From the NCBI GenBank assembly GCA_964347865.1, contig CAYGAC010000006.1, positions 6,538 through 30,537 on the forward strand: a stretch of 24,000 bases of DNA. The letters are read 5' to 3'. The DNA comes from an uncultured Thermoplasmatales archaeon. GTDB taxonomy: Archaea > Thermoplasmatota > E2 > DHVEG-1. The notes beneath the pieces were generated by a model. The model saw only the letters and a program-made list of their open reading frames with translations. It made no database searches and was not told the DNA's origin. Shown here piece after piece: positions 1,721 to 7,329 of the stretch (its first letter is position 1; each line of letters opens with the position of its first letter). The position numbers and the translations under genes are program-made.

Positions 1721-2623
1721 ATGATAGTGCAAACTAAATTACCGGGAATTGAAAATGAAATAAGGTTTAGAGTGAAAAATGGAAAATTTAAAAAGGACGT
1801 GGCACGGGAACTCGGTGTTAGTTATTACATGGTGAAGAAATACACAAAGGATATTAGGACAAGTTTAAGAATTCTAAAAGAACTTGAACAACGGGTACGA
1901 GAAGAAGTAAGAAATAGAAAATCTAAGAGGCAAGTAGCAACAGATCTCAATATTTCCATGGATACGGTAATAAAATACACTAGAGACATAAAAACAAAAC
2001 CAATTATTAAAAGAAAAAGGTCGGCTGAAGAGATAAAACAAATCAGAGAAAATGTAAAAAAATATAATTCGAAAATTGAAACTGCAAGGCGGATGGGGCT
2101 TACTTATCAAACTGTGATTTGGTATACTAGAGGTATTCCTCTAAGGAGAAAATATGCACCAAAGCAAAGATATTCTTATGAAAAGATAGAGGAGATACGA
2201 AGAGAAGTCAAAAATGGAAAATTAAAAACTCAAGTAGCTAAAGAGATGAACATCCCCCTTTCTACTGTTTCTGAATACACCGAGGATATCTATCTGGTTA
2301 AAAAGAAGGCAGATATTAGCAATAGGGCATTTTTATTGTTACAGGAACTCGTATGTAAAGGATATGCGTTTCCGTGTTCACGATATGGGTTTAAAGATTA
2401 TCAAATACTGAGGAAGGAATTTCCGAATATTTGGAGAGCGGATATGTATGGTAGAACAATTTTCTATCTGGAGGATAGATCCGATATTGCTATGAGAATG
2501 TTCCTTGAGAGGATAGATAGGAAAATAATCAGTTATCAAGAACTTAAACAGATAATCGATATTTTCCAAGGGAATATTTCAAAAAAGGATAAGAAAAAAT
2601 ATATTAAAAAGGATGAAAATTAA
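1721..2623 (+). CDS. DNA-binding protein with four tandem helix-turn-helix repeats plus a ~110-aa C-terminal domain of unknown function
   Basis: 300-aa ORF with an ATG start. Four ~33-aa internal repeats: IRFRVKNGKFKKDVARELGVSYYMVKKYTKDI, VREEVRNRKSKRQVATDLNISMDTVIKYTRDI, IRENVKKYNSKIETARRMGLTYQTVIWYTRGI, IRREVKNGKLKTQVAKEMNIPLSTVSEYTEDI. Each fits a short resolvase/terminase-like HTH pattern. Confidence 0.7.
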   Translation: MIVQTKLPGIENEIRFRVKNGKFKKDVARELGVSYYMVKKYTKDIRTSLRILKELEQRVREEVRNRKSKRQVATDLNISMDTVIKYTRDIKTKPIIKRKRSAEEIKQIRENVKKYNSKIETARRMGLTYQTVIWYTRGIPLRRKYAPKQRYSYEKIEEIRREVKNGKLKTQVAKEMNIPLSTVSEYTEDIYLVKKKADISNRAFLLLQELVCKGYAFPCSRYGFKDYQILRKEFPNIWRADMYGRTIFYLEDRSDIAMRMFLERIDRKIISYQELKQIIDIFQGNISKKDKKKYIKKDEN

Positions 2624-2862
2624 TATTATTTTTTAAAAATATTAATTCTGTTTTCTACTTATCAACTGTTCATTCTTTCATAGAAATAGTACACTCGGAT
2701 GTACTAGATATGCCGATAAGTTTATAACGATTTATCCATAATTTATTTTTTGCTGGGTGTAGGTGGACGGTTGGCGACGATTTATTTTCCTGAGGGATAT
2801 ACTACTTCAAATTGTTTTGATGATAATGGTTCAAAACGTATAATTTGTAGTTTGTTTTTTTA

Positions 2863-2906
2863 TGGCTAATTGGAGTTGGCTAATTAACTGAAAAACTTGG
2901 CTAATT
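2863..2906. repeat. Three direct copies of TGGCTAATT (2863-2871, 2877-2885, 2898-2906) in an ORF-free tract
   Basis: Read directly: tatGGCTAATTggagtTGGCTAATTaactgaaaaactTGGCTAATTag. The third copy forms the palindrome CTAATTAG. Confidence 0.5.
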
Positions 2907-3034
2907 AGTACCCCCGATGATGCAAGGGTCTATTATAGTGAGTTAAGGTATTAACAGGTAAACAGATATGAGAGCCTAAAGCGATGAATTAGATAGTGAG
3001 GTGATCCTCTCTGCTTTTTAGCATTCGTTTAAGT

Positions 3035-3057
3035 TTCGGTTAATTATCTAAACCGAA
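3035..3057. promoter_or_regulatory. Inverted-repeat site A of the TTCGGTTAA-N5-TTAACCGAA family (TTCGGTTAA ttatc TAAACCGAA)
   Basis: Read directly; one mismatch in the right arm. Lies 19 nt upstream of the small ORF at 3076. Confidence 0.45.
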
Positions 3058-3075
3058 TTTTTAAGGTTTCCAGTT

Positions 3076-3198
3076 ATGCTCCAGGAGATGACAACAATTG
3101 GTGGGACGATGACATTAGCAACAGTAAGTATCTGGTTAGCAATGGTTTTTGTCTCACAGAAAATCAATCAGAATATGTTAAAAACAGTTAAATCTTAA
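3076..3198 (+). CDS. Possible 40-aa small membrane peptide (MLQEMTTIGGTMTLATVSIWLAMVFVSQKINQNMLKTVKS)
   Basis: ATG-initiated ORF below the track's size cutoff, with one hydrophobic helix-length segment. It is preceded by IR site A and followed within 10 nt by three oligo-T runs. No homology known to me. Confidence 0.25.
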   Translation: MLQEMTTIGGTMTLATVSIWLAMVFVSQKINQNMLKTVKS

Positions 3199-3207
3199 AT
3201 AACAAAA

Positions 3208-3228
3208 TTTTTTTATTTTTTATTTTTT
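3208..3228 (+). terminator. Oligo-T tract (T7, T6, T6), a candidate archaeal-style terminator
   Basis: tttttttatttttttatttttt read directly. Archaeal termination typically uses oligo-T runs on the sense strand. Confidence 0.35.
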
Positions 3229-3349
3229 CAAAAGTAAAAAAGGTCAAAAAAGATATTGTTCTATCGGTAGATATAAAAAATGAAAAAATGTCCCTAGCTA
3301 AAGGTTCGATTACATATGCTTGCCTATCTGGTTTTTTAATATTTAAAAA

Positions 3350-3733
3350 TCAAGCATTGATCAGCTTTATATAATTCATCTTTCCGCTTACCTGAAAATC
3401 TCGAACTATCCTCTTTATTCTATCTGCATCACCTTCTAAAACAAATATTTCAAGACATTTATCATCATGTAAATGACTATGGATTTGTGTTTTTGTGATA
3501 TCTTCGAATCTATGTTTAATATCTGATACAACAATTTCCTCATCTTGATTATGGATTAATAATAAAACCGAATTTATTTTCCCGGATAATTTTTCTTTTT
3601 CCTTATTTTCTGCGATAAGTAATCTCGCTCCAGATCTAATTACTTCTGATCTCCCAGAATATCCATATTCATTTTGAATTCTATCGATTTCTTCAAGTAT
3701 TTTATCGTTTAGAGAAATACTTACAATAACCAT
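3350..3733 (-). CDS. nikR: Nickel-responsive transcriptional regulator NikR (RHH N-domain plus metal-binding C-domain)
   Basis: 127 aa. The N-terminal RHH is VSISLNDKILEEIDRIQNEYGYSGRSEVIRSGARLL. The C-terminal HSHLHDDKCLEIFVLEGDADRIKRI matches E. coli NikR [22 protein letters not shown], which carries the His/His/Cys high-affinity Ni site. Confidence 0.85.
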   Translation of the reverse strand: MVIVSISLNDKILEEIDRIQNEYGYSGRSEVIRSGARLLIAENKEKEKLSGKINSVLLLIHNQDEEIVVSDIKHRFEDITKTQIHSHLHDDKCLEIFVLEGDADRIKRIVRDFQVSGKMNYIKLINA

Positions 3734-3744
3734 AATTTAAAAAA

Positions 3745-3784
3745 TTAATAACATCTTTAAATAATTTACCATAAAAGTTATTAA
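3745..3784. promoter_or_regulatory. Candidate NikR operator in the 63-bp divergent intergenic region: TTAATAAC-N24-GTTATTAA, with a third half-site TTAATAA at 3800-3806
   Basis: Perfect 8-bp inverted arms read directly. TATA-like boxes lie at about 3753-3766 (minus strand, ~26 nt from the nikR ATG) and 3788-3797 (plus strand, ~26 nt from the ATG at 3821). This suggests two leaderless transcripts with half-sites overlapping the promoters. The AT-rich background makes a chance palindrome plausible. Confidence 0.35.
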
Positions 3785-3796
3785 CAGATTATATAA

Positions 3797-4450
3797 ATGT
3801 TAATAATATATATAAAATTTATGCGTGAAATCGTCAAAAGAGTCGGAACTGAATTAAAACATCACATCCCTTTTACATCATTTGGAGCTTTAACAGGTAT
3901 AATACTTATGATAATGATCTTTTTTGGTAATTTTTTACCACAAATTGCTCCAAATTCTGAATATATATTTTTTATATTACATCCTACACATATTTTTTTA
4001 AGTGCACTTGTTACAACTGCTCTTTACTTAAAATATACCAAAAAAAATCTTTGGTTAGCAATTATAATTGGATATATTGGCTCAATTGGAATAGCAACAA
4101 TTAGTGATTCGATTATTCCATATTTAGGAGAAATATTACTTGATTTACCGCATGCAGAGGCACATATAGGTTTTATTGAAGAGCCAATTATTACAAATAT
4201 TCCAGCAGTTATTGGAATTTTTTTAGGTTATTGGAAAGGATTTACTAAATTTCCACATGCCGGACATGTTTTAATAAGCACATGGGCATCATTATTCCAT
4301 ATTGTAATGGCTCTAGGGGTATCAATAAACTTTATTCAGATTATTGGCATATTTATATTCCTATTTTTAGCTGTATGGATACCCTGTTGTACAAGTGATA
4401 TTATATTTCCTCTGCTTTTCCCAAAGAGAACTACTAAATCTGAAAATTAA
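3797..4450 (+). CDS. His-rich polytopic membrane protein (about 6 TM), a putative metal (Ni/Co?) transporter divergent from nikR
   Basis: 217-aa ORF; the ATG at 3821 (MREIVKRV...) is the more likely start. About six hydrophobic segments. His clusters: KHH, HPTH inside a TM segment, HAEAH, PHAGH; plus a CC pair (IPCCTSD). I do not recognise the family. Confidence 0.7.
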   Translation: MLIIYIKFMREIVKRVGTELKHHIPFTSFGALTGIILMIMIFFGNFLPQIAPNSEYIFFILHPTHIFLSALVTTALYLKYTKKNLWLAIIIGYIGSIGIATISDSIIPYLGEILLDLPHAEAHIGFIEEPIITNIPAVIGIFLGYWKGFTKFPHAGHVLISTWASLFHIVMALGVSINFIQIIGIFIFLFLAVWIPCCTSDIIFPLLFPKRTTKSEN

Positions 4451-4532
4451 TAATTTATACAAATTCTATTTCAAATAAAAACATAAAAAGAAAAGAAGGT
4501 TTTTATAGAGTCCATGGAAAATATCGCAAAGA

Positions 4533-4669
4533 TTTTCGACGAGAAAAGTGACGAGAATCGGCGAATAAATACGTCCATCATAACCGCTAGATCATAGCCA
4601 ATTATAATAAAAAGAAAAAAGAAAAGTTTTAGAAAAAACTTTTATATTTTCGACGATTTTTTCGACGAT
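4533..4669. repeat. CGACGA-type short direct repeats with 12-nt phasing in an ORF-free tract
   Basis: TTTTCGACGAG at 4533. GACGAGAA at 4538 and 4550 (period 12). TTTTCGACGAT at 4647 and 4659 (period 12). An inverted related copy (ATCGTCGTTTTCTCGG) lies at 5141-5156. Confidence 0.45.
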
Positions 4670-4882
4670 ATTCTCAGCGAAATGTGTAAGGTAACCACTT
4701 TGTTACCCGCCCAATTTTGGAGTTATTTGCCCCAGGAGGGTTCTGTAGCCGATGTGAAATAATCGTGATTGATATAAATATTCTCATGTTTGATTGTCTA
4801 AACTTAAGAATTGAAGTAATGATGAAATGACTTATGTCCAACACTATAATTTCTTTTTGATAAAATCATATATGTAGTGGTT

Positions 4883-4905
4883 TTCGGTTTATCACATTAA
4901 CCGAT
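4883..4905. promoter_or_regulatory. Inverted-repeat site B of the same family (TTCGGTTTA tcaca TTAACCGAT)
   Basis: Read directly; one mismatch per arm relative to site C. Confidence 0.4.
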
Positions 4906-5015
4906 GCCAAGGATTTTTTGGTTAATAAATAAGATGATTAGCAATTTTAAGAGGAAAAAATAGAATTCTAAAAGTTTTTAAATATACTCAGAGGGCAAGA
5001 AGAGGAGGTAGGAAC

Positions 5016-5069
5016 ATGAAAAAAAGATATTCATTTCTTACTGATACTTGTAAGCCTTGCTCCCAATAA
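5016..5069 (+). CDS. Possible 17-aa peptide MKKRYSFLTDTCKPCSQ with a very strong ribosome-binding site
   Basis: GAGGAGGT sits 6-7 nt upstream of the ATG (agaGGAGGTaggaacATG), matching the SD context of confident genes in this window. The peptide has a CxxC pair. No other support. Confidence 0.25.
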   Translation: MKKRYSFLTDTCKPCSQ

Positions 5070-5209
5070 TGAAATCAAAAATTGATTTTTAAGTTTAACT
5101 TCTAATCAAGTCGATGCAAAAGTACAATTTTTACGAAGGAATCGTCGTTTTCTCGGAGGCGATCGGTTTCTAAATTCTCACCCATGCTAAATTTTTTTTC
5201 GTCTGTGAT

Positions 5210-5617
5210 CTATTTCAACTCGATTTTTATACGTGGTTCTGTCATTTTTCCTTTCTTTTCTTGTATCTTGTTTTCTCTTGCTAACCATCCCAATGCAGAA
5301 TAAGCGTCTCTTACCTCTAACTTTGTCAACTCTGTGAGATGGGGAACATCGACTTCTCCAACCGTAGTCAGAACCTGCCATATCTTTCCTGCATTTCTCC
5401 CTATTTCGTTTGTTAAATTGGTTTCATCAAGGAGATACATCATGTTATTCTTACAGATTTTGTTTTCTCGTGCAAGCCATCCTACTGCAGCAAAAAAATC
5501 GTCTTCTCGTAGCTTTGTAATGCTTAAAAGCTTGGCTTCAGTTAGTGGGCCGTATGAATTGAGTGCTTGCCATAACTTACCCGCATTTTTTCCACATTCT
5601 TCAATTATTTTTTTCAT
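5210..5617 (-). CDS. Tandem winged-helix protein (two DUF2582-like wHTH domains in one chain)
   Basis: 135 aa. Internal duplication: NAGKLWQALNSYGPLTEAKLLSITKLREDDFFAAVGWLARENKI and NAGKIWQVLTTVGEVDVPHLTELTKLEVRDAYSALGWLARENKI. GWLARExKI is the hallmark I associate with Pfam DUF2582. GAGGAGAG SD upstream. Confidence 0.75.
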   Translation of the reverse strand: MKKIIEECGKNAGKLWQALNSYGPLTEAKLLSITKLREDDFFAAVGWLARENKICKNNMMYLLDETNLTNEIGRNAGKIWQVLTTVGEVDVPHLTELTKLEVRDAYSALGWLARENKIQEKKGKMTEPRIKIELK

Positions 5618-5746
5618 AGGATCTCTCCTCTAAAATCTCAATATCTTTTGGATGATTATATATATTGTGATAGTTACGCAACTACTGTAAAGTCTGAGGA
5701 TTTCTCGCTTACTAAATATTAAAATTGGAATTAGAAATTTTGTTTT

Positions 5747-5769
5747 TTCGGTTAATATATTTAACCGAA
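5747..5769. promoter_or_regulatory. Inverted-repeat site C, a perfect TTCGGTTAA tatat TTAACCGAA, about 130 nt upstream of the tandem-wHTH gene
   Basis: Perfect 9-bp arms with a 5-nt spacer, read directly. Confidence 0.5.
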
Positions 5770-5829
5770 CTGTTTGTTTGTACACTTTTTTAATACATCA
5801 GCCACTTCTGGTAACACATTTAATGCTCA

Positions 5830-6042
5830 CTACGTTTTTATTTCGCGCAAACTATAAACACTATCATCTGAGCGAAAAATACCAACTTTCTTTCCTACCA
5901 CAGATTCTAATTTTTCCCGTGGAATTGATCCCCACGGTATTTCAATTTCCTTGCGAATTGCAAATACAAGTTTTATTTTATCCTGCTCTGGTTTTATTTC
6001 AGCTAACGTACCAACGATTTCATGAGATTGCTTTAGATGCAT
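5830..6042 (-). CDS. Hypothetical 70-aa protein
   Basis: ATG start with a GAGGGGAG SD upstream. The overlapping plus-strand ORF 5778..6065 is low-complexity and hydrophobic. No family recognised. Confidence 0.5.
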   Translation of the reverse strand: MHLKQSHEIVGTLAEIKPEQDKIKLVFAIRKEIEIPWGSIPREKLESVVGKKVGIFRSDDSVYSLREIKT

Positions 6043-6117
6043 TTAACTCCCCTCTAACAGTATAATAATACGAATTCATTACCCATATATAATATTTATC
6101 TTTTTTTTATTATAATA

Positions 6118-6215
6118 TTAACCGAAATGGTTTTTCTCCTTAAAATCGCTCAAACAGGTTATTTTTAACCGAAATGCTCTCCTTACACAATTTTCATACC
6201 AATCTTAACCGAAAT
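6118..6215 (+). repeat. Three direct copies of the half-site TTAACCGAAAT (6118-6128, 6165-6175, 6205-6215)
   Basis: Identical 11-mers read directly, spaced 47 and 40 nt apart, between the integrase stop and the 70-aa gene start. Confidence 0.55.
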
Positions 6216-6324: not shown

Positions 6325-7329
6325 TCAATCTACCCCGAGTTGTGGTATACATGCCAGATACGAATCTCTCAGGTCCTTTCGATCAATATGGTGATAAAGA
6401 TCAACAGCTTCATGCCGCGCATCGCCCCGGAGCTCCTTGACGTATTCTCTTTTCATTCCATTTCGCAATAACCAAGTTGAAAACCAATGACGTGTACAAT
6501 GAGTGGTAAATCTATCCTGTATCCTATGGCTGGTAGGATTATGCAAACCAACTCTCGTTGCATATTTAACAATAAGTTCGAATATTGCGTTCCTGCCCAA
6601 CCTCCCTCCCCGTTCATTCAAAAACAATGCTTTCGTCCCACTGTTTTTTCTGTTTACCCTGCTTGCCATCCAGCGTTTGAGCACCCTAGCACATTCGTCA
6701 TCAAAAAAAACATCCAAATTCGTTCTCTTGGGAATGGGTTTAAGGTGAATGCACTGCTCCAGCCAATCAATATCATTCACATCGATATGGGATAATTCTT
6801 CACGGCGGATTCCTGTTTTTGCCAAAACAATGACCACCGCTTTATCACGCGGGTCCATAATGGAGTTCACCAGCATACTCATTTCTTCTATGCTGATCAG
6901 TTTCCTTCTAGAACTGCCATCGTCGCTATACCGCTTTCTTTTATACTCTCTCAAATAACGCTTACGAAACTTGGGCATCGGTGATGTATCAATATAGTTT
7001 TCAAACTCCAGATACTCGTACAGGGACTGAATGGCAGAAAAATACCTGTTGATAGTAGAAGTGCTTAATGATTCGTTATATCTATTTTTTAAATTTTCAA
7101 GATATAGTTTGAAGTTTTTCAAATCAGGGATGTCAACATCCAATAACGATCTATCAACGGTATCTGAAAAAACAGTTAAGCATGACCGATAGTTGTCAAT
7201 GGTTTTTCTAGTTAATCCCATGCATTTGGCATCGGTCAAATATTCCTTAATAAGAGCTTCATTATTTATCTCTCTCCGTACATCAGGAACGATGGTGGTT
7301 TTTTTCTTTACTCCTCTTTCCATCGCCAC
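6325..7329 (-). CDS. Tyrosine recombinase / integrase (phage-integrase family)
   Basis: 334 aa. N-terminal SAM-like core-binding region (INRYFSAIQSLYEYL). Catalytic-domain motifs: AKTGIRREEL (Arg), HCTRHWF (His-x-x-Arg), and VDLYHHI (likely Tyr nucleophile). The track start at 7329 is GTG; the ATG at 7323 preceded by GGGGTG is more likely. Overlaps the upstream gene's end. Confidence 0.85.
   Translation of the reverse strand: MAMERGVKKKTTIVPDVRREINNEALIKEYLTDAKCMGLTRKTIDNYRSCLTVFSDTVDRSLLDVDIPDLKNFKLYLENLKNRYNESLSTSTINRYFSAIQSLYEYLEFENYIDTSPMPKFRKRYLREYKRKRYSDDGSSRRKLISIEEMSMLVNSIMDPRDKAVVIVLAKTGIRREELSHIDVNDIDWLEQCIHLKPIPKRTNLDVFFDDECARVLKRWMASRVNRKNSGTKALFLNERGGRLGRNAIFELIVKYATRVGLHNPTSHRIQDRFTTHCTRHWFSTWLLRNGMKREYVKELRGDARHEAVDLYHHIDRKDLRDSYLACIPQLGVD

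What the first reader, a model, noticed from the sequence alone, without database searches (positions are those of the whole stretch)
3035..6215. Operator-like motif family TTCGGTTAA-N5-TTAACCGAA (three inverted sites) plus three direct TTAACCGAAAT half-sites, confined to the regulator-rich region
Seen: a perfect palindrome at 5747-5769 and near-perfect copies at 3035-3057 and 4883-4905, all with the same 5-nt spacer. Three identical 11-mers TTAACCGAAAT lie at 6118, 6165 and 6205. The only other exact TTAACCGAA I saw is inside a CDS (13345). The perfect site lies in the upstream region of the tandem-wHTH gene (5210..5617). The direct repeats lie upstream of the 70-aa gene and next to the integrase. 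Inference: they form a small regulon or iteron set for an element-encoded DNA binder. A protein with two fused wHTH domains is a natural reader of a two-half-site operator, which would imply autoregulation.
Basis: partly seen in the sequence, partly recalled or inferred. Interest (0 to 1): 0.6.

Follow-up and report, generated by a model that had tools for sequence, protein, structure and literature searches.

The report
Dispersed palindrome at mobile-DNA seams
The three palindromes are real, but they are local copies of a 23-base protein-binding-type motif found about 43 times in this archaeal genome at the joints between swappable blocks of foreign DNA; its likeliest reader is a small winged-helix protein encoded elsewhere, not the neighbouring regulator.

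Summary
Palindromes lie at 3035-3057, 4883-4905 and 5747-5769, and three TTAACCGAAAT copies at 6118, 6165 and 6205. None is expected by chance.

The motif is not confined to this region. Two related MAGs hold 27 and at least 7. The other 105 family genomes hold none, apart from one stray hit.

The sites are intergenic and keep no fixed distance to gene starts. The two arms vary independently, so hairpin pairing is not selected. This fits a double-stranded site read by a symmetric dimer.

Homology between copies usually stops at the palindrome, within and between genomes. The sites therefore mark recombination seams between modules of accessory DNA.

The tandem-wHTH (DUF2582), 4xHTH, integrase, 70-aa and Y1-transposase families all occur in motif-free relatives.

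One family matches the motif's distribution, in 3 of 108 genomes. It is a 103-aa orphan protein with a PadR-like winged-helix model. A palindrome lies 120-260 bp downstream of its gene wherever enough downstream sequence was available. This link is correlative and could reflect physical linkage alone.

The scan had already noted this palindrome on another contig (e1-1363607).

The parts
3035..3057 (.). Palindrome copy 1 (TTCGGTTAA-TTATC-TAAACCGAA, 1 mismatch). It is the seam between a 380-nt multi-copy non-coding block on the left and a short ORF plus the NikR-like module on the right.
   Evidence: The left flank is 90% identical to G000:C74:3893 up to the palindrome and unrelated beyond it.
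4883..4905 (.). Palindrome copy 2 (TTCGGTTTA-TCACA-TTAACCGAT, 2 mismatches). It is the seam between a conserved non-coding block and the DUF2582 module.
   Evidence: The left flank is 85% identical over 340-380 nt to C80:96226 and C26:2822 and ends at the site.
5747..5769 (.). Palindrome copy 3 (perfect, spacer TATAT). It is the seam between the DUF2582 module and the integrase module.
   Evidence: The right flank is 88% identical to C25 over 650 nt, starting at the palindrome. The left flank shares only about 40 nt.
6118..6215 (+). Three direct half-sites TTAACCGAAAT (6118, 6165, 6205) between the integrase stop and the 70-aa ORF.
   Evidence: This is the only such cluster in the genome apart from the sister element on C25. 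It lies in a block about 98% identical between C6 and C25.
5210..5617 (-). Tandem winged-helix protein (DUF2582 x2). It is a neighbour of the motif, not its specific reader.
   Evidence: Pfam PF10771, E 5e-34. The family is present in 33 of 41 relatives irrespective of the motif.
5830..6042 (-). 70-aa ORF, a small OB-like beta-barrel that recurs in tRNA-integrating elements.
   Evidence: AF2 model pLDDT 83, with weak IF1/S1/RPA-like matches. The family is present in 7 of 41 relatives, including motif-free ones.
6325..7329 (-). Tyrosine integrase of an element integrated at tRNA-Glu.
   Evidence: Pfam Phage_integrase, E 1e-23. All five paralogues in the genome abut the 3' end of a tRNA gene.
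7308..7850 (-). RHH/coiled-coil ORF, overlapping and upstream of the integrase.
   Evidence: PHROG Arc-like repressor hit, E 1e-4. It is always paired with the integrase.
7906..7983 (-). tRNA-Glu(TTC), the attachment side of the integrase module. Conserved synteny with relatives begins here.
1721..2623 (+). Protein with four HTH repeats, 412 bp from palindrome 1.
   Evidence: The family is also present in motif-free G001, G002 and G005.
3350..4450 (.). NikR-like RHH regulator (3350-3733, minus) and a divergent 217-aa membrane protein (3797-4450, plus). This is the module between palindromes 1 and 2.
   Evidence: The pair is 72-74% identical to G004:C10, where no palindrome lies nearby.

Best explanation
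The window's three palindromes are members of a lineage-restricted family of dispersed dyad-symmetric sites. The consensus is TTTCGGTTAAT-N3-ATTAACCGAAA, with invariant CGGTT and AACCG cores 9 bp apart. They act as double-stranded binding sites for a symmetric dimeric protein, and they sit at the seams between exchangeable modules of accessory or mobile DNA.

In this window they cut the roughly 14-kb island beside tRNA-Glu into four modules: integrase, DUF2582, NikR plus transporter, and 4xHTH plus a giant surface protein.

Shown: the family exists, its distribution is patchy, the sites are intergenic, the arms do not co-vary, and homology breaks at the palindrome at nucleotide resolution.

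Inferred: Also inferred: the short identical protein-bound sites are where recombination repeatedly joins different modules. The three direct half-sites would be extra, lower-affinity landing sites for the same protein in one element type.
For: Family and enrichment:
- 43 sites against 0 for the control in this genome.
- 27 in G004, 7 in G016 and none in 38 other relatives.
- Multi-copy in 3 of 108 family genomes, with one stray single hit.
- Information content is confined to positions 2-12 from the dyad, and AACCG is invariant.

Double-stranded protein site rather than hairpin:
- At the variable arm positions 3, 4, 11 and 12, Watson-Crick-compatible pairs number 62, 47, 57 and 44.
- Independence predicts 63.5, 45.6, 57.7 and 45.8.

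Seams:
- 71 one-sided against 17 two-sided homologous pairs, with alignment end-points piling up at the dyad.
- Flanks are 95-100% identical up to the palindrome and unrelated straight after it.
- A 10-kb operon block shared at 88% with G004 ends 12 bp past the palindrome in both genomes.

Candidate reader:
- P0001 homologues lie 120-260 bp upstream of a palindrome in G000 (4 copies), G004 (3), G016 (1) and in the unrelated metagenome contigs that extend far enough downstream.
- The family is found in exactly the three motif-bearing genomes of 108.
- The AF2 model (pLDDT 85) is a winged helix. Top PDB fold matches are PadR/LmrR, RTP and pNOB8 AspA, TM 0.5-0.63.
- Invariant residues cluster in the recognition helix (S43-K49) and the wing (W72-Y79).
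- PadR operators are inverted 4-bp cores 8-10 bp apart (PMC3506622). AspA reads a 23-bp palindrome (PMC5120986).
Against: - The protein-motif link is correlative. P0001 always carries a copy next to it, so co-occurrence could be physical linkage within one shared pool of mobile elements.
- P0001 matches PadR only at fold level, with Foldseek E about 5e-3 and no Pfam PadR hit.
- At its own locus the palindrome lies after the gene's terminator-like hairpin and about 200 nt before the next promoter. That is not a classical operator position.
- Ten of 32 fully flanked sites lie between convergent genes.
- The covariation test on distant homologues was inconclusive.
Confidence: 0.45

Rival explanations
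1. The palindrome is the core crossover site of a dedicated site-specific recombinase, probably one of the genome's many tyrosine recombinases. The recombinase would exchange, insert or invert modules between sites, with the asymmetric centre setting partner choice and direction. This would be an integron-like or shufflon-like cassette system, in which P0001 is at most an accessory factor.
For: - Breakpoints fall exactly at the palindrome in many independent pairs.
- The architecture of 8-9-bp inverted arms around a 5-9-bp centre is typical of such sites.
- The centre is asymmetric, T-N3-C, in 48 of 77 sites.
- Spacers fall into a few classes shared across genomes.
- Among recent one-sided pairs, 12 of 18 share the whole spacer, against 6% for random pairs.
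- G000 has 29 and G004 has 43 Phage_integrase hits.
Against: - No recombinase is consistently adjacent to the sites or shares their distribution.
- The one integrase family tested abuts tRNA genes and occurs in motif-free genomes.
- G005 has 39 integrase hits and no motif. G004 has no serine recombinase hit.
- Three of the 18 recent recombinant pairs have wholly different spacers.
- About 10 copies keep both flanks and are internal to an element rather than at a junction.
Confidence: 0.25
2. One reading: a local operator or iteron set read by a regulator encoded in the window (tandem wHTH, 4xHTH or RHH), with autoregulation of the DUF2582 gene.
For: The perfect site lies 130 bp upstream of the DUF2582 start. 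Three palindromes and three half-sites fall within 3.2 kb, next to several DNA-binding genes.
Against: - Forty further sites lie elsewhere in the genome.
- The DUF2582 family is in 33 of 41 relatives without regard to the motif, and its two paralogues in G000 lie on site-free contigs.
- The 4xHTH family is present in motif-free genomes.
- The NikR-like pair in G004 has no site nearby.
- The same flank type that adjoins the DUF2582 gene occurs beside unrelated genes in either orientation.
Confidence: 0.05
3. A selfish REP-, BIME- or MITE-like hairpin repeat, spread by a transposase such as an IS200/IS605-type Y1 enzyme, with no protein-operator role.
For: It is a dispersed, intergenic, multi-copy palindrome embedded in a mosaic of short recurrent flank motifs, as in BIMEs. 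One IS200-type gene lies 0.2 kb from a copy on C17.
Against: - There is no selection for arm pairing.
- Y1_Tnp is present in 17 of 41 relatives, which does not fit the motif's distribution, and G000 has a single copy.
- Solitary half-sites are at about the chance level: 74 exact against 31-38 expected, with most of the excess inside palindromes.
- No terminal-repeat unit of constant length was found.
Confidence: 0.07
4. The sites are a passively conserved boundary sequence, for example part of a shared terminator or promoter context. Ectopic homologous recombination happens there, and no dedicated binding protein is involved.
For: Junctions lie at a short shared sequence, as in the boundary sequences of mosaic phages (my own knowledge). 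Spacers travel with either flank, as expected for crossovers in either arm.
Against: The AACCG cores are near-invariant in 77 sites, while flanks and centres diverge freely. There is no consistent promoter or terminator geometry. No T-run follows the palindrome.
Confidence: 0.08

Closest known systems
PadR-family operators (LmrR, B. subtilis PadR; PDB 5X11, 3F8B)
   Same: A small winged-helix dimer of about 100-110 aa reads inverted short cores 8-10 bp apart (PMC3506622).
   Different: There is no sequence-level PadR match. The sites are not at promoters. There are tens of copies at module seams rather than one or two operators. Binding is untested.
pNOB8 AspA and its 23-bp palindromic centromere (Sulfolobus conjugative plasmid)
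   Same: A small winged-helix dimer encoded by an archaeal mobile element recognises a 23-bp palindrome next to its own gene (PMC5120986). AspA appears among the fold matches (4rs8).
   Different: AspA's site lies upstream of aspA and is followed by parB-parA. Here the site lies downstream of the gene, no ParA/ParB genes were seen next to it, and copies are dispersed over the chromosome.
REP/BIME elements with RAYT transposases (enterobacteria).
   Same: Dispersed intergenic palindromes combined with a small repertoire of flanking motifs in mosaic arrangements.
   Different: REPs act as hairpins and pair with a RAYT gene. Here the arms show no compensatory variation and Y1 transposases do not track the motif.
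'Recombination motif' of the Sulfolobus conjugative plasmids of the pING/pNOB8 family (Stedman et al. 2000; Greve et al. 2004). Recalled from my own knowledge; the papers were not held.
   Same: A short conserved palindromic motif recurs at the borders of variable regions in archaeal mobile elements, where rearrangements occur.
   Different: The sequence and the lineage differ. That motif is plasmid-borne, whereas here the copies are spread through chromosomal accessory DNA.
Core sites of tyrosine recombinases (dif, lox, attC-type systems)
   Same: Inverted arms surround a short asymmetric centre, and recombinant junctions fall at the site.
   Different: No cognate recombinase was identified. 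The spacer is not always shared by partners. The local integrases use tRNA genes.

Membership tests
Local autoregulatory operator of the DUF2582 tandem-wHTH protein | The motif and the regulator family co-occur across genomes. | tested here: not met
   The regulator family is in 33 of 41 relatives. The motif is in 3 of 41 relatives and 3 of 108 family genomes.
Local autoregulatory operator of the DUF2582 tandem-wHTH protein | Sites are restricted to the regulator's own locus or regulon promoters. | tested here: not met
   There are 43 sites on 24 contigs. Distances to gene starts range from 9 to 874 bp, and all gene orientations occur.
PadR-type operator and regulator pair | Inverted short cores are separated by about 8-10 bp. 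| tested here: met
   CGGTT-N9-AACCG from the position matrix. The reference geometry comes from PMC3506622.
PadR-type operator and regulator pair | The regulator belongs to the PadR family. | tested here: inconclusive
   The fold matches PadR/LmrR at TM 0.5-0.63 but with E only about 5e-3. There is no Pfam PadR hit.
PadR-type operator and regulator pair | The operator overlaps the promoter of the regulated gene. | tested here: not met
   At the P0001 locus the site follows the gene's terminator-like hairpin, and the next TATA box is about 200 nt away.
PadR-type operator and regulator pair | The protein binds the site specifically. | not testable with these tools
   This needs EMSA, footprinting or DAP-seq.
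REP/BIME with RAYT | The hairpin is maintained by compensatory changes. | tested here: not met
   Watson-Crick pair counts equal the expectation under independence at all variable arm positions.
REP/BIME with RAYT | A cognate Y1 (RAYT) transposase tracks the repeats. | tested here: not met
   PF01797 is in 17 of 41 relatives. G000 has one copy.
Tyrosine-recombinase core site | Recombinant junctions lie at the site. | tested here: met
Tyrosine-recombinase core site | A cognate recombinase is adjacent or co-distributed. | tested here: inconclusive
   The window's integrase family does not fit. The other 24 integrase-like genes of G000 were not profiled individually.
Tyrosine-recombinase core site | Recombining partners share an identical overlap region. 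| tested here: inconclusive
   Of 18 recent one-sided pairs, 12 share the spacer, 3 differ by one base and 3 differ wholly.
Plasmid iterons (for the three direct repeats) | Regularly spaced direct repeats of 17-22 bp lie next to a rep gene or origin. | tested here: not met
   The repeats are 11-mers spaced 47 and 40 bp apart, between an integrase and an OB-like ORF, with no rep gene.
AspA-type archaeal centromere | The palindrome lies upstream of the wHTH gene, followed by parB-parA. | tested here: not met
   The site lies downstream of P0001. The following genes are a 119-aa ORF, a 216-aa ORF and a PCNA-like protein.

The most novel reading that the evidence does not exclude
An archaeal multi-site recombination system. 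A 23-bp core site with a handful of centre classes would partition chromosomal accessory DNA into cassettes that are exchanged within and between species. The cassettes include integrase modules, regulators, surface-protein genes and even a complete 10-kb haem/sirohaem operon. A PadR-like winged-helix protein from a PCNA-carrying element would mark the sites or give them specificity. This would be functionally analogous to integrons or shufflons but built from different parts.
Probability: 0.22. Interest if true: 0.8.

Novelty: new variant of a known kind. Interest (0 to 1): 0.55.

Why it matters
The motif gives a concrete sequence handle on how uncultured sediment archaea (MBG-D/Thermoprofundales) assemble and reshuffle their large accessory genomes. 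Module borders can be read directly from the sequence. One block that ends at a site is a whole metabolic operon shared between species at 88% identity. A single orphan winged-helix protein is now a testable candidate for the factor that recognises the seams. If binding is confirmed, this would be a mobile-element protein with dozens of chromosomal target sites. If a recombinase acts there, it would be a new cassette-exchange system in Archaea. For annotation, it warns against reading such palindromes as operators of whichever regulator happens to lie next door.

Tried and rejected
1. Integrase att or arm sites. Rejected: all five paralogous integrase-RHH modules abut tRNA 3' ends, two of them lack the motif, and the family occurs in motif-free genomes. 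No tRNA-Glu fragment marking the far end of the island was found.
2. Hairpin, terminator or RNA function. Rejected: the arms do not co-vary and no T-run follows. There is no Rfam hit.
3. Extra half-sites flanking the palindromes (3024-3032 and 4917-4925 in the window). Rejected as a general feature: 21 within 45 nt of sites against 30 in control positions.
4. Other candidate readers. DUF2582, 4xHTH, an Lrp-like 177-aa family, the 70-aa ORF (an OB-like fold) and Y1 transposase all occur in motif-free relatives.
5. Covariation between distant P0001 homologues and their downstream palindromes. Inconclusive.
6. The exact-pattern hits in a 'Ca. Mcinerneyibacteriota' MAG and in high-GC bacteria are a different repeat or chance.
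7. Viral contigs hold no P0001 relative and only two chance motif hits.
8. Contig ends at palindromes, in this MAG and in the source assemblies. Twelve of 43 sites lie within 600 nt of a contig end. Repeat-induced assembly breaks explain this, so it was not counted as evidence of live rearrangement.
10. The literature search for the motif found nothing relevant.

Full report
**1. Observation**

The window holds three palindromes:
- TTCGGTTAA-TTATC-TAAACCGAA at 3035-3057
- TTCGGTTTA-TCACA-TTAACCGAT at 4883-4905
- the perfect TTCGGTTAA-TATAT-TTAACCGAA at 5747-5769

It also holds three exact TTAACCGAAAT copies at 6118, 6165 and 6205. Dinucleotide shuffles give 0.00 palindromes with up to 2 mismatches and 0.03 exact 11-mers.

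**2. Gene context**

Annotation gives this order, left to right:
- the N-terminus of a giant surface protein
- a 147-aa ORF
- a 4xHTH protein (1721-2623)
- palindrome 1
- a NikR-like RHH regulator and a divergent membrane protein
- conserved non-coding DNA
- palindrome 2
- a tandem DUF2582 winged-helix gene (5210-5617, minus strand)
- palindrome 3
- a 70-aa ORF
- the three half-sites
- a tyrosine integrase (6325-7329) with an overlapping RHH/coiled-coil ORF
- tRNA-Glu, tRNA-Gln and GlnRS

Synteny with relatives of the same genus starts at tRNA-Glu. Everything to its left is accessory. Earlier notes label the organism an uncultured Thermoprofundales/MBG-D archaeon.

**3. The motif is not local**

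- The genome (2.97 Mb, 89 contigs) holds 43 sites with up to 2 mismatches on 24 contigs. The reversed control gives 0.
- Of the 43 sites, 26 lie on contigs shorter than 25 kb, which make up 19% of the assembly.
- Exact half-sites are only about two-fold enriched (74 against 31-38 expected). Most of that excess lies inside palindromes, so the palindrome is the unit.
- Among 40 relatives, only one genome of the same genus (G004, 27 sites) and one of another genus (G016, 7 sites) carry it.
- Across all 108 genomes of the family it is multi-copy in those three only, with one stray hit elsewhere.
- Exact hits in bacteria are chance, or a different repeat in one MAG.
- An earlier agent of this scan had described the same palindrome on another contig as marking mobile-element seams (e1-1363607). 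My tests agree and extend that note.

**4. What kind of element it is**

- A position matrix over 86 half-sites puts the information at positions 2-12 from the dyad: TTTCGGTTAAT-N3-ATTAACCGAAA. AACCG is essentially invariant, and nothing is generally conserved outside.
- Nearly all sites are intergenic.
- Among fully flanked sites, 10 lie between convergent genes, 10 between divergent genes and 12 between tandem genes. Distances to gene starts range from 9 to 874 bp. This is not a promoter-proximal operator or a terminator pattern, and no T-run follows the palindrome.
- The two arms vary independently. At the variable positions, Watson-Crick-compatible combinations occur exactly as often as independence predicts: 62 against 63.5, 47 against 45.6, 57 against 57.7, and 44 against 45.8.
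- Hairpin or cruciform function (REP-like, RNA, single-strand transposase substrate) is therefore not selected. Recognition of double-stranded DNA by a symmetric dimer is the simplest reading.
- The centre is asymmetric, T-N3-C, in 48 of 77 sites.

**5. Seams**

- All-against-all comparison of the flanks shows that homology between copies is mostly one-sided: 71 one-sided pairs against 17 that span the site. Alignment end-points pile up at the dyad.
- At nucleotide level, flanks can be 95-100% identical up to the palindrome and unrelated immediately after it.
- About 26 short flank families assort combinatorially.
- The spacer travels with either side. It is shared in 42% of one-sided pairs and in 12 of 18 recent ones, against 6% for random pairs.
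- Between genomes, a 10-kb operon block (G000:C2:865-10888) is 88% identical to G004. Core genes are about 75% identical, and the block was not found in three motif-free genomes of the same genus. It ends 12 bp past the palindrome in both genomes. Its other end is not at a palindrome.
- Recombination at these sites is therefore well supported. Contig ends at the palindromes are explained by repeats.

**6. Who reads it**

Families that fail the distribution test:

| Family | Present in |
|---|---|
| Tandem DUF2582 wHTH | 33 of 41 relatives, 1-5 copies each |
| 4xHTH | motif-free G001, G002 and G005 as well |
| Lrp-like 177-aa family (often near sites) | 23 of 41 |
| 70-aa ORF (OB-like barrel) | 7 of 41 |
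| Y1 transposase | 17 of 41 |
| Integrase family | 8 of 41 |

The two DUF2582 paralogues in this genome sit on contigs without sites. All five copies of the integrase family in this genome abut tRNA 3' ends (Glu-TTC, Glu-CTC, Ser, Gly x2), and two of them lack the motif.

The one family that fits is a 103-aa orphan, P0001:
- Its gene lies 120-260 bp upstream of a palindrome in every context with enough downstream sequence. These are four in G000, three in G004, one in G016 and four metagenome contigs at 65-85% protein identity.
- Both the single sequence and a profile find it in exactly the three motif-bearing genomes of 108.
- Its AF2 model (pLDDT 85) has the canonical winged-helix order plus C-terminal helices.
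- The best PDB fold matches are PadR/LmrR, B. subtilis RTP and pNOB8 AspA, at TM 0.5-0.63 and weak E-values.
- Invariant residues cluster in the recognition helix and the wing.
- The CGGTT-N9-AACCG geometry matches PadR operators, which are ATGT-N8-10-ACAT (PMC3506622). AspA reads a 23-bp palindrome (PMC5120986).

Caveats:
- The co-occurrence may be linkage within a shared pool of mobile elements.
- At the P0001 locus the site lies just after a terminator-like hairpin and about 200 nt before the next promoter.
- Distant homologues gave no clean covariation.

**7. The three direct half-sites**

They occur only here and in the 93%-identical sister element at tRNA-Glu(CTC) on contig C25. They lie in a block that is about 98% identical between the two copies. 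Their conservation therefore says little. They are identical to the palindrome's half-site, so I read them as additional landing sites for the same protein. They do not look like iterons, because no rep gene is nearby and the spacing is irregular. They do not look like integrase arm sites either, because they are absent from the other integrase modules.

**8. Verdict**

The local-regulon and autoregulation reading is not supported.

The best-supported account is a dispersed, lineage-restricted, double-stranded binding-site family at the recombination seams of accessory DNA, with a PadR-like orphan winged-helix protein as the leading candidate reader (confidence 0.45).

The main rival is a dedicated site-specific recombination system (0.25). 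It is also the most novel reading still open.

Noticed in passing
window 9856-10868: About 1 kb, including a 235-aa ORF (10069-10776) with no Pfam hit, is inserted between GlnRS and tRNA-Gln(CTG). In G002, G004 and G005 these two genes are only about 20-40 bp apart.
   Followed up: no
window 2660-3034, 4484-4599, 4609-4716: Multi-copy conserved non-coding segments. The first has six copies in this genome at 78-91% identity. The others also recur in G016, G001, G002 and G004 at 81-90%. There is no Rfam match. They could be small RNA genes or element leaders.
   Followed up: partly
G000:C2:865-10888 (L133): A complete haem/sirohaem-type biosynthesis operon block is 88% identical to G004:C156 but was not found in three other genomes of the genus. 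This suggests recent horizontal exchange of a metabolic operon. The block ends at a palindrome.
   Followed up: partly
G000:C25:6214-8652 (L039): A second copy of the RHH-integrase-70-aa module (93% protein identity) is integrated at tRNA-Glu(CTC). It has the same three half-sites and two palindromes 175 bp apart.
   Followed up: yes
G000:C44:5745-8901; C17:36939-40133 (L134): Mobile-element module: 103-aa winged-helix ORF, terminator-like hairpin ATAAAAGA-N6-TCTTTTAT, palindrome, 119-aa ORF, 216-aa ORF, PCNA-like protein (PF00705, 25.5 bits). On C44 it follows an integrase at tRNA-Ser.
   Followed up: partly
G000:C6:106, C74:12802, C31:16043; G016 L077:1137: Giant surface proteins share a C-terminal module of about 590 aa, and each carries a palindrome 130-180 bp after its stop codon.
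   Followed up: no
L011-L028 (DAOVMD01 contigs): A 'Ca. Mcinerneyibacteriota' MAG carries a different dispersed palindrome, TTCGGTTAAC-N3-GTTAACCGAA, next to CAGAGAACAGA-like runs on at least 12 short contigs. It is an unrelated repeat family that matches the search pattern by coincidence.
   Followed up: no
whole genomes G000, G004, G005: Tyrosine recombinase hits are unusually numerous: 29, 43 and 39 Phage_integrase hits, against 7 in G002.
   Followed up: no
L141:3842-3864; L144:2610-2632: Distant homologues of the 103-aa protein (34-38% identity, 163 aa) lack the motif. They have another 23-bp palindrome, GCCTTAAA-N7-TTTAAGGC, about 345 bp downstream. The region is 86% identical overall, and this palindrome is not multi-copy in 197 genomes of the class.
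   Followed up: partly
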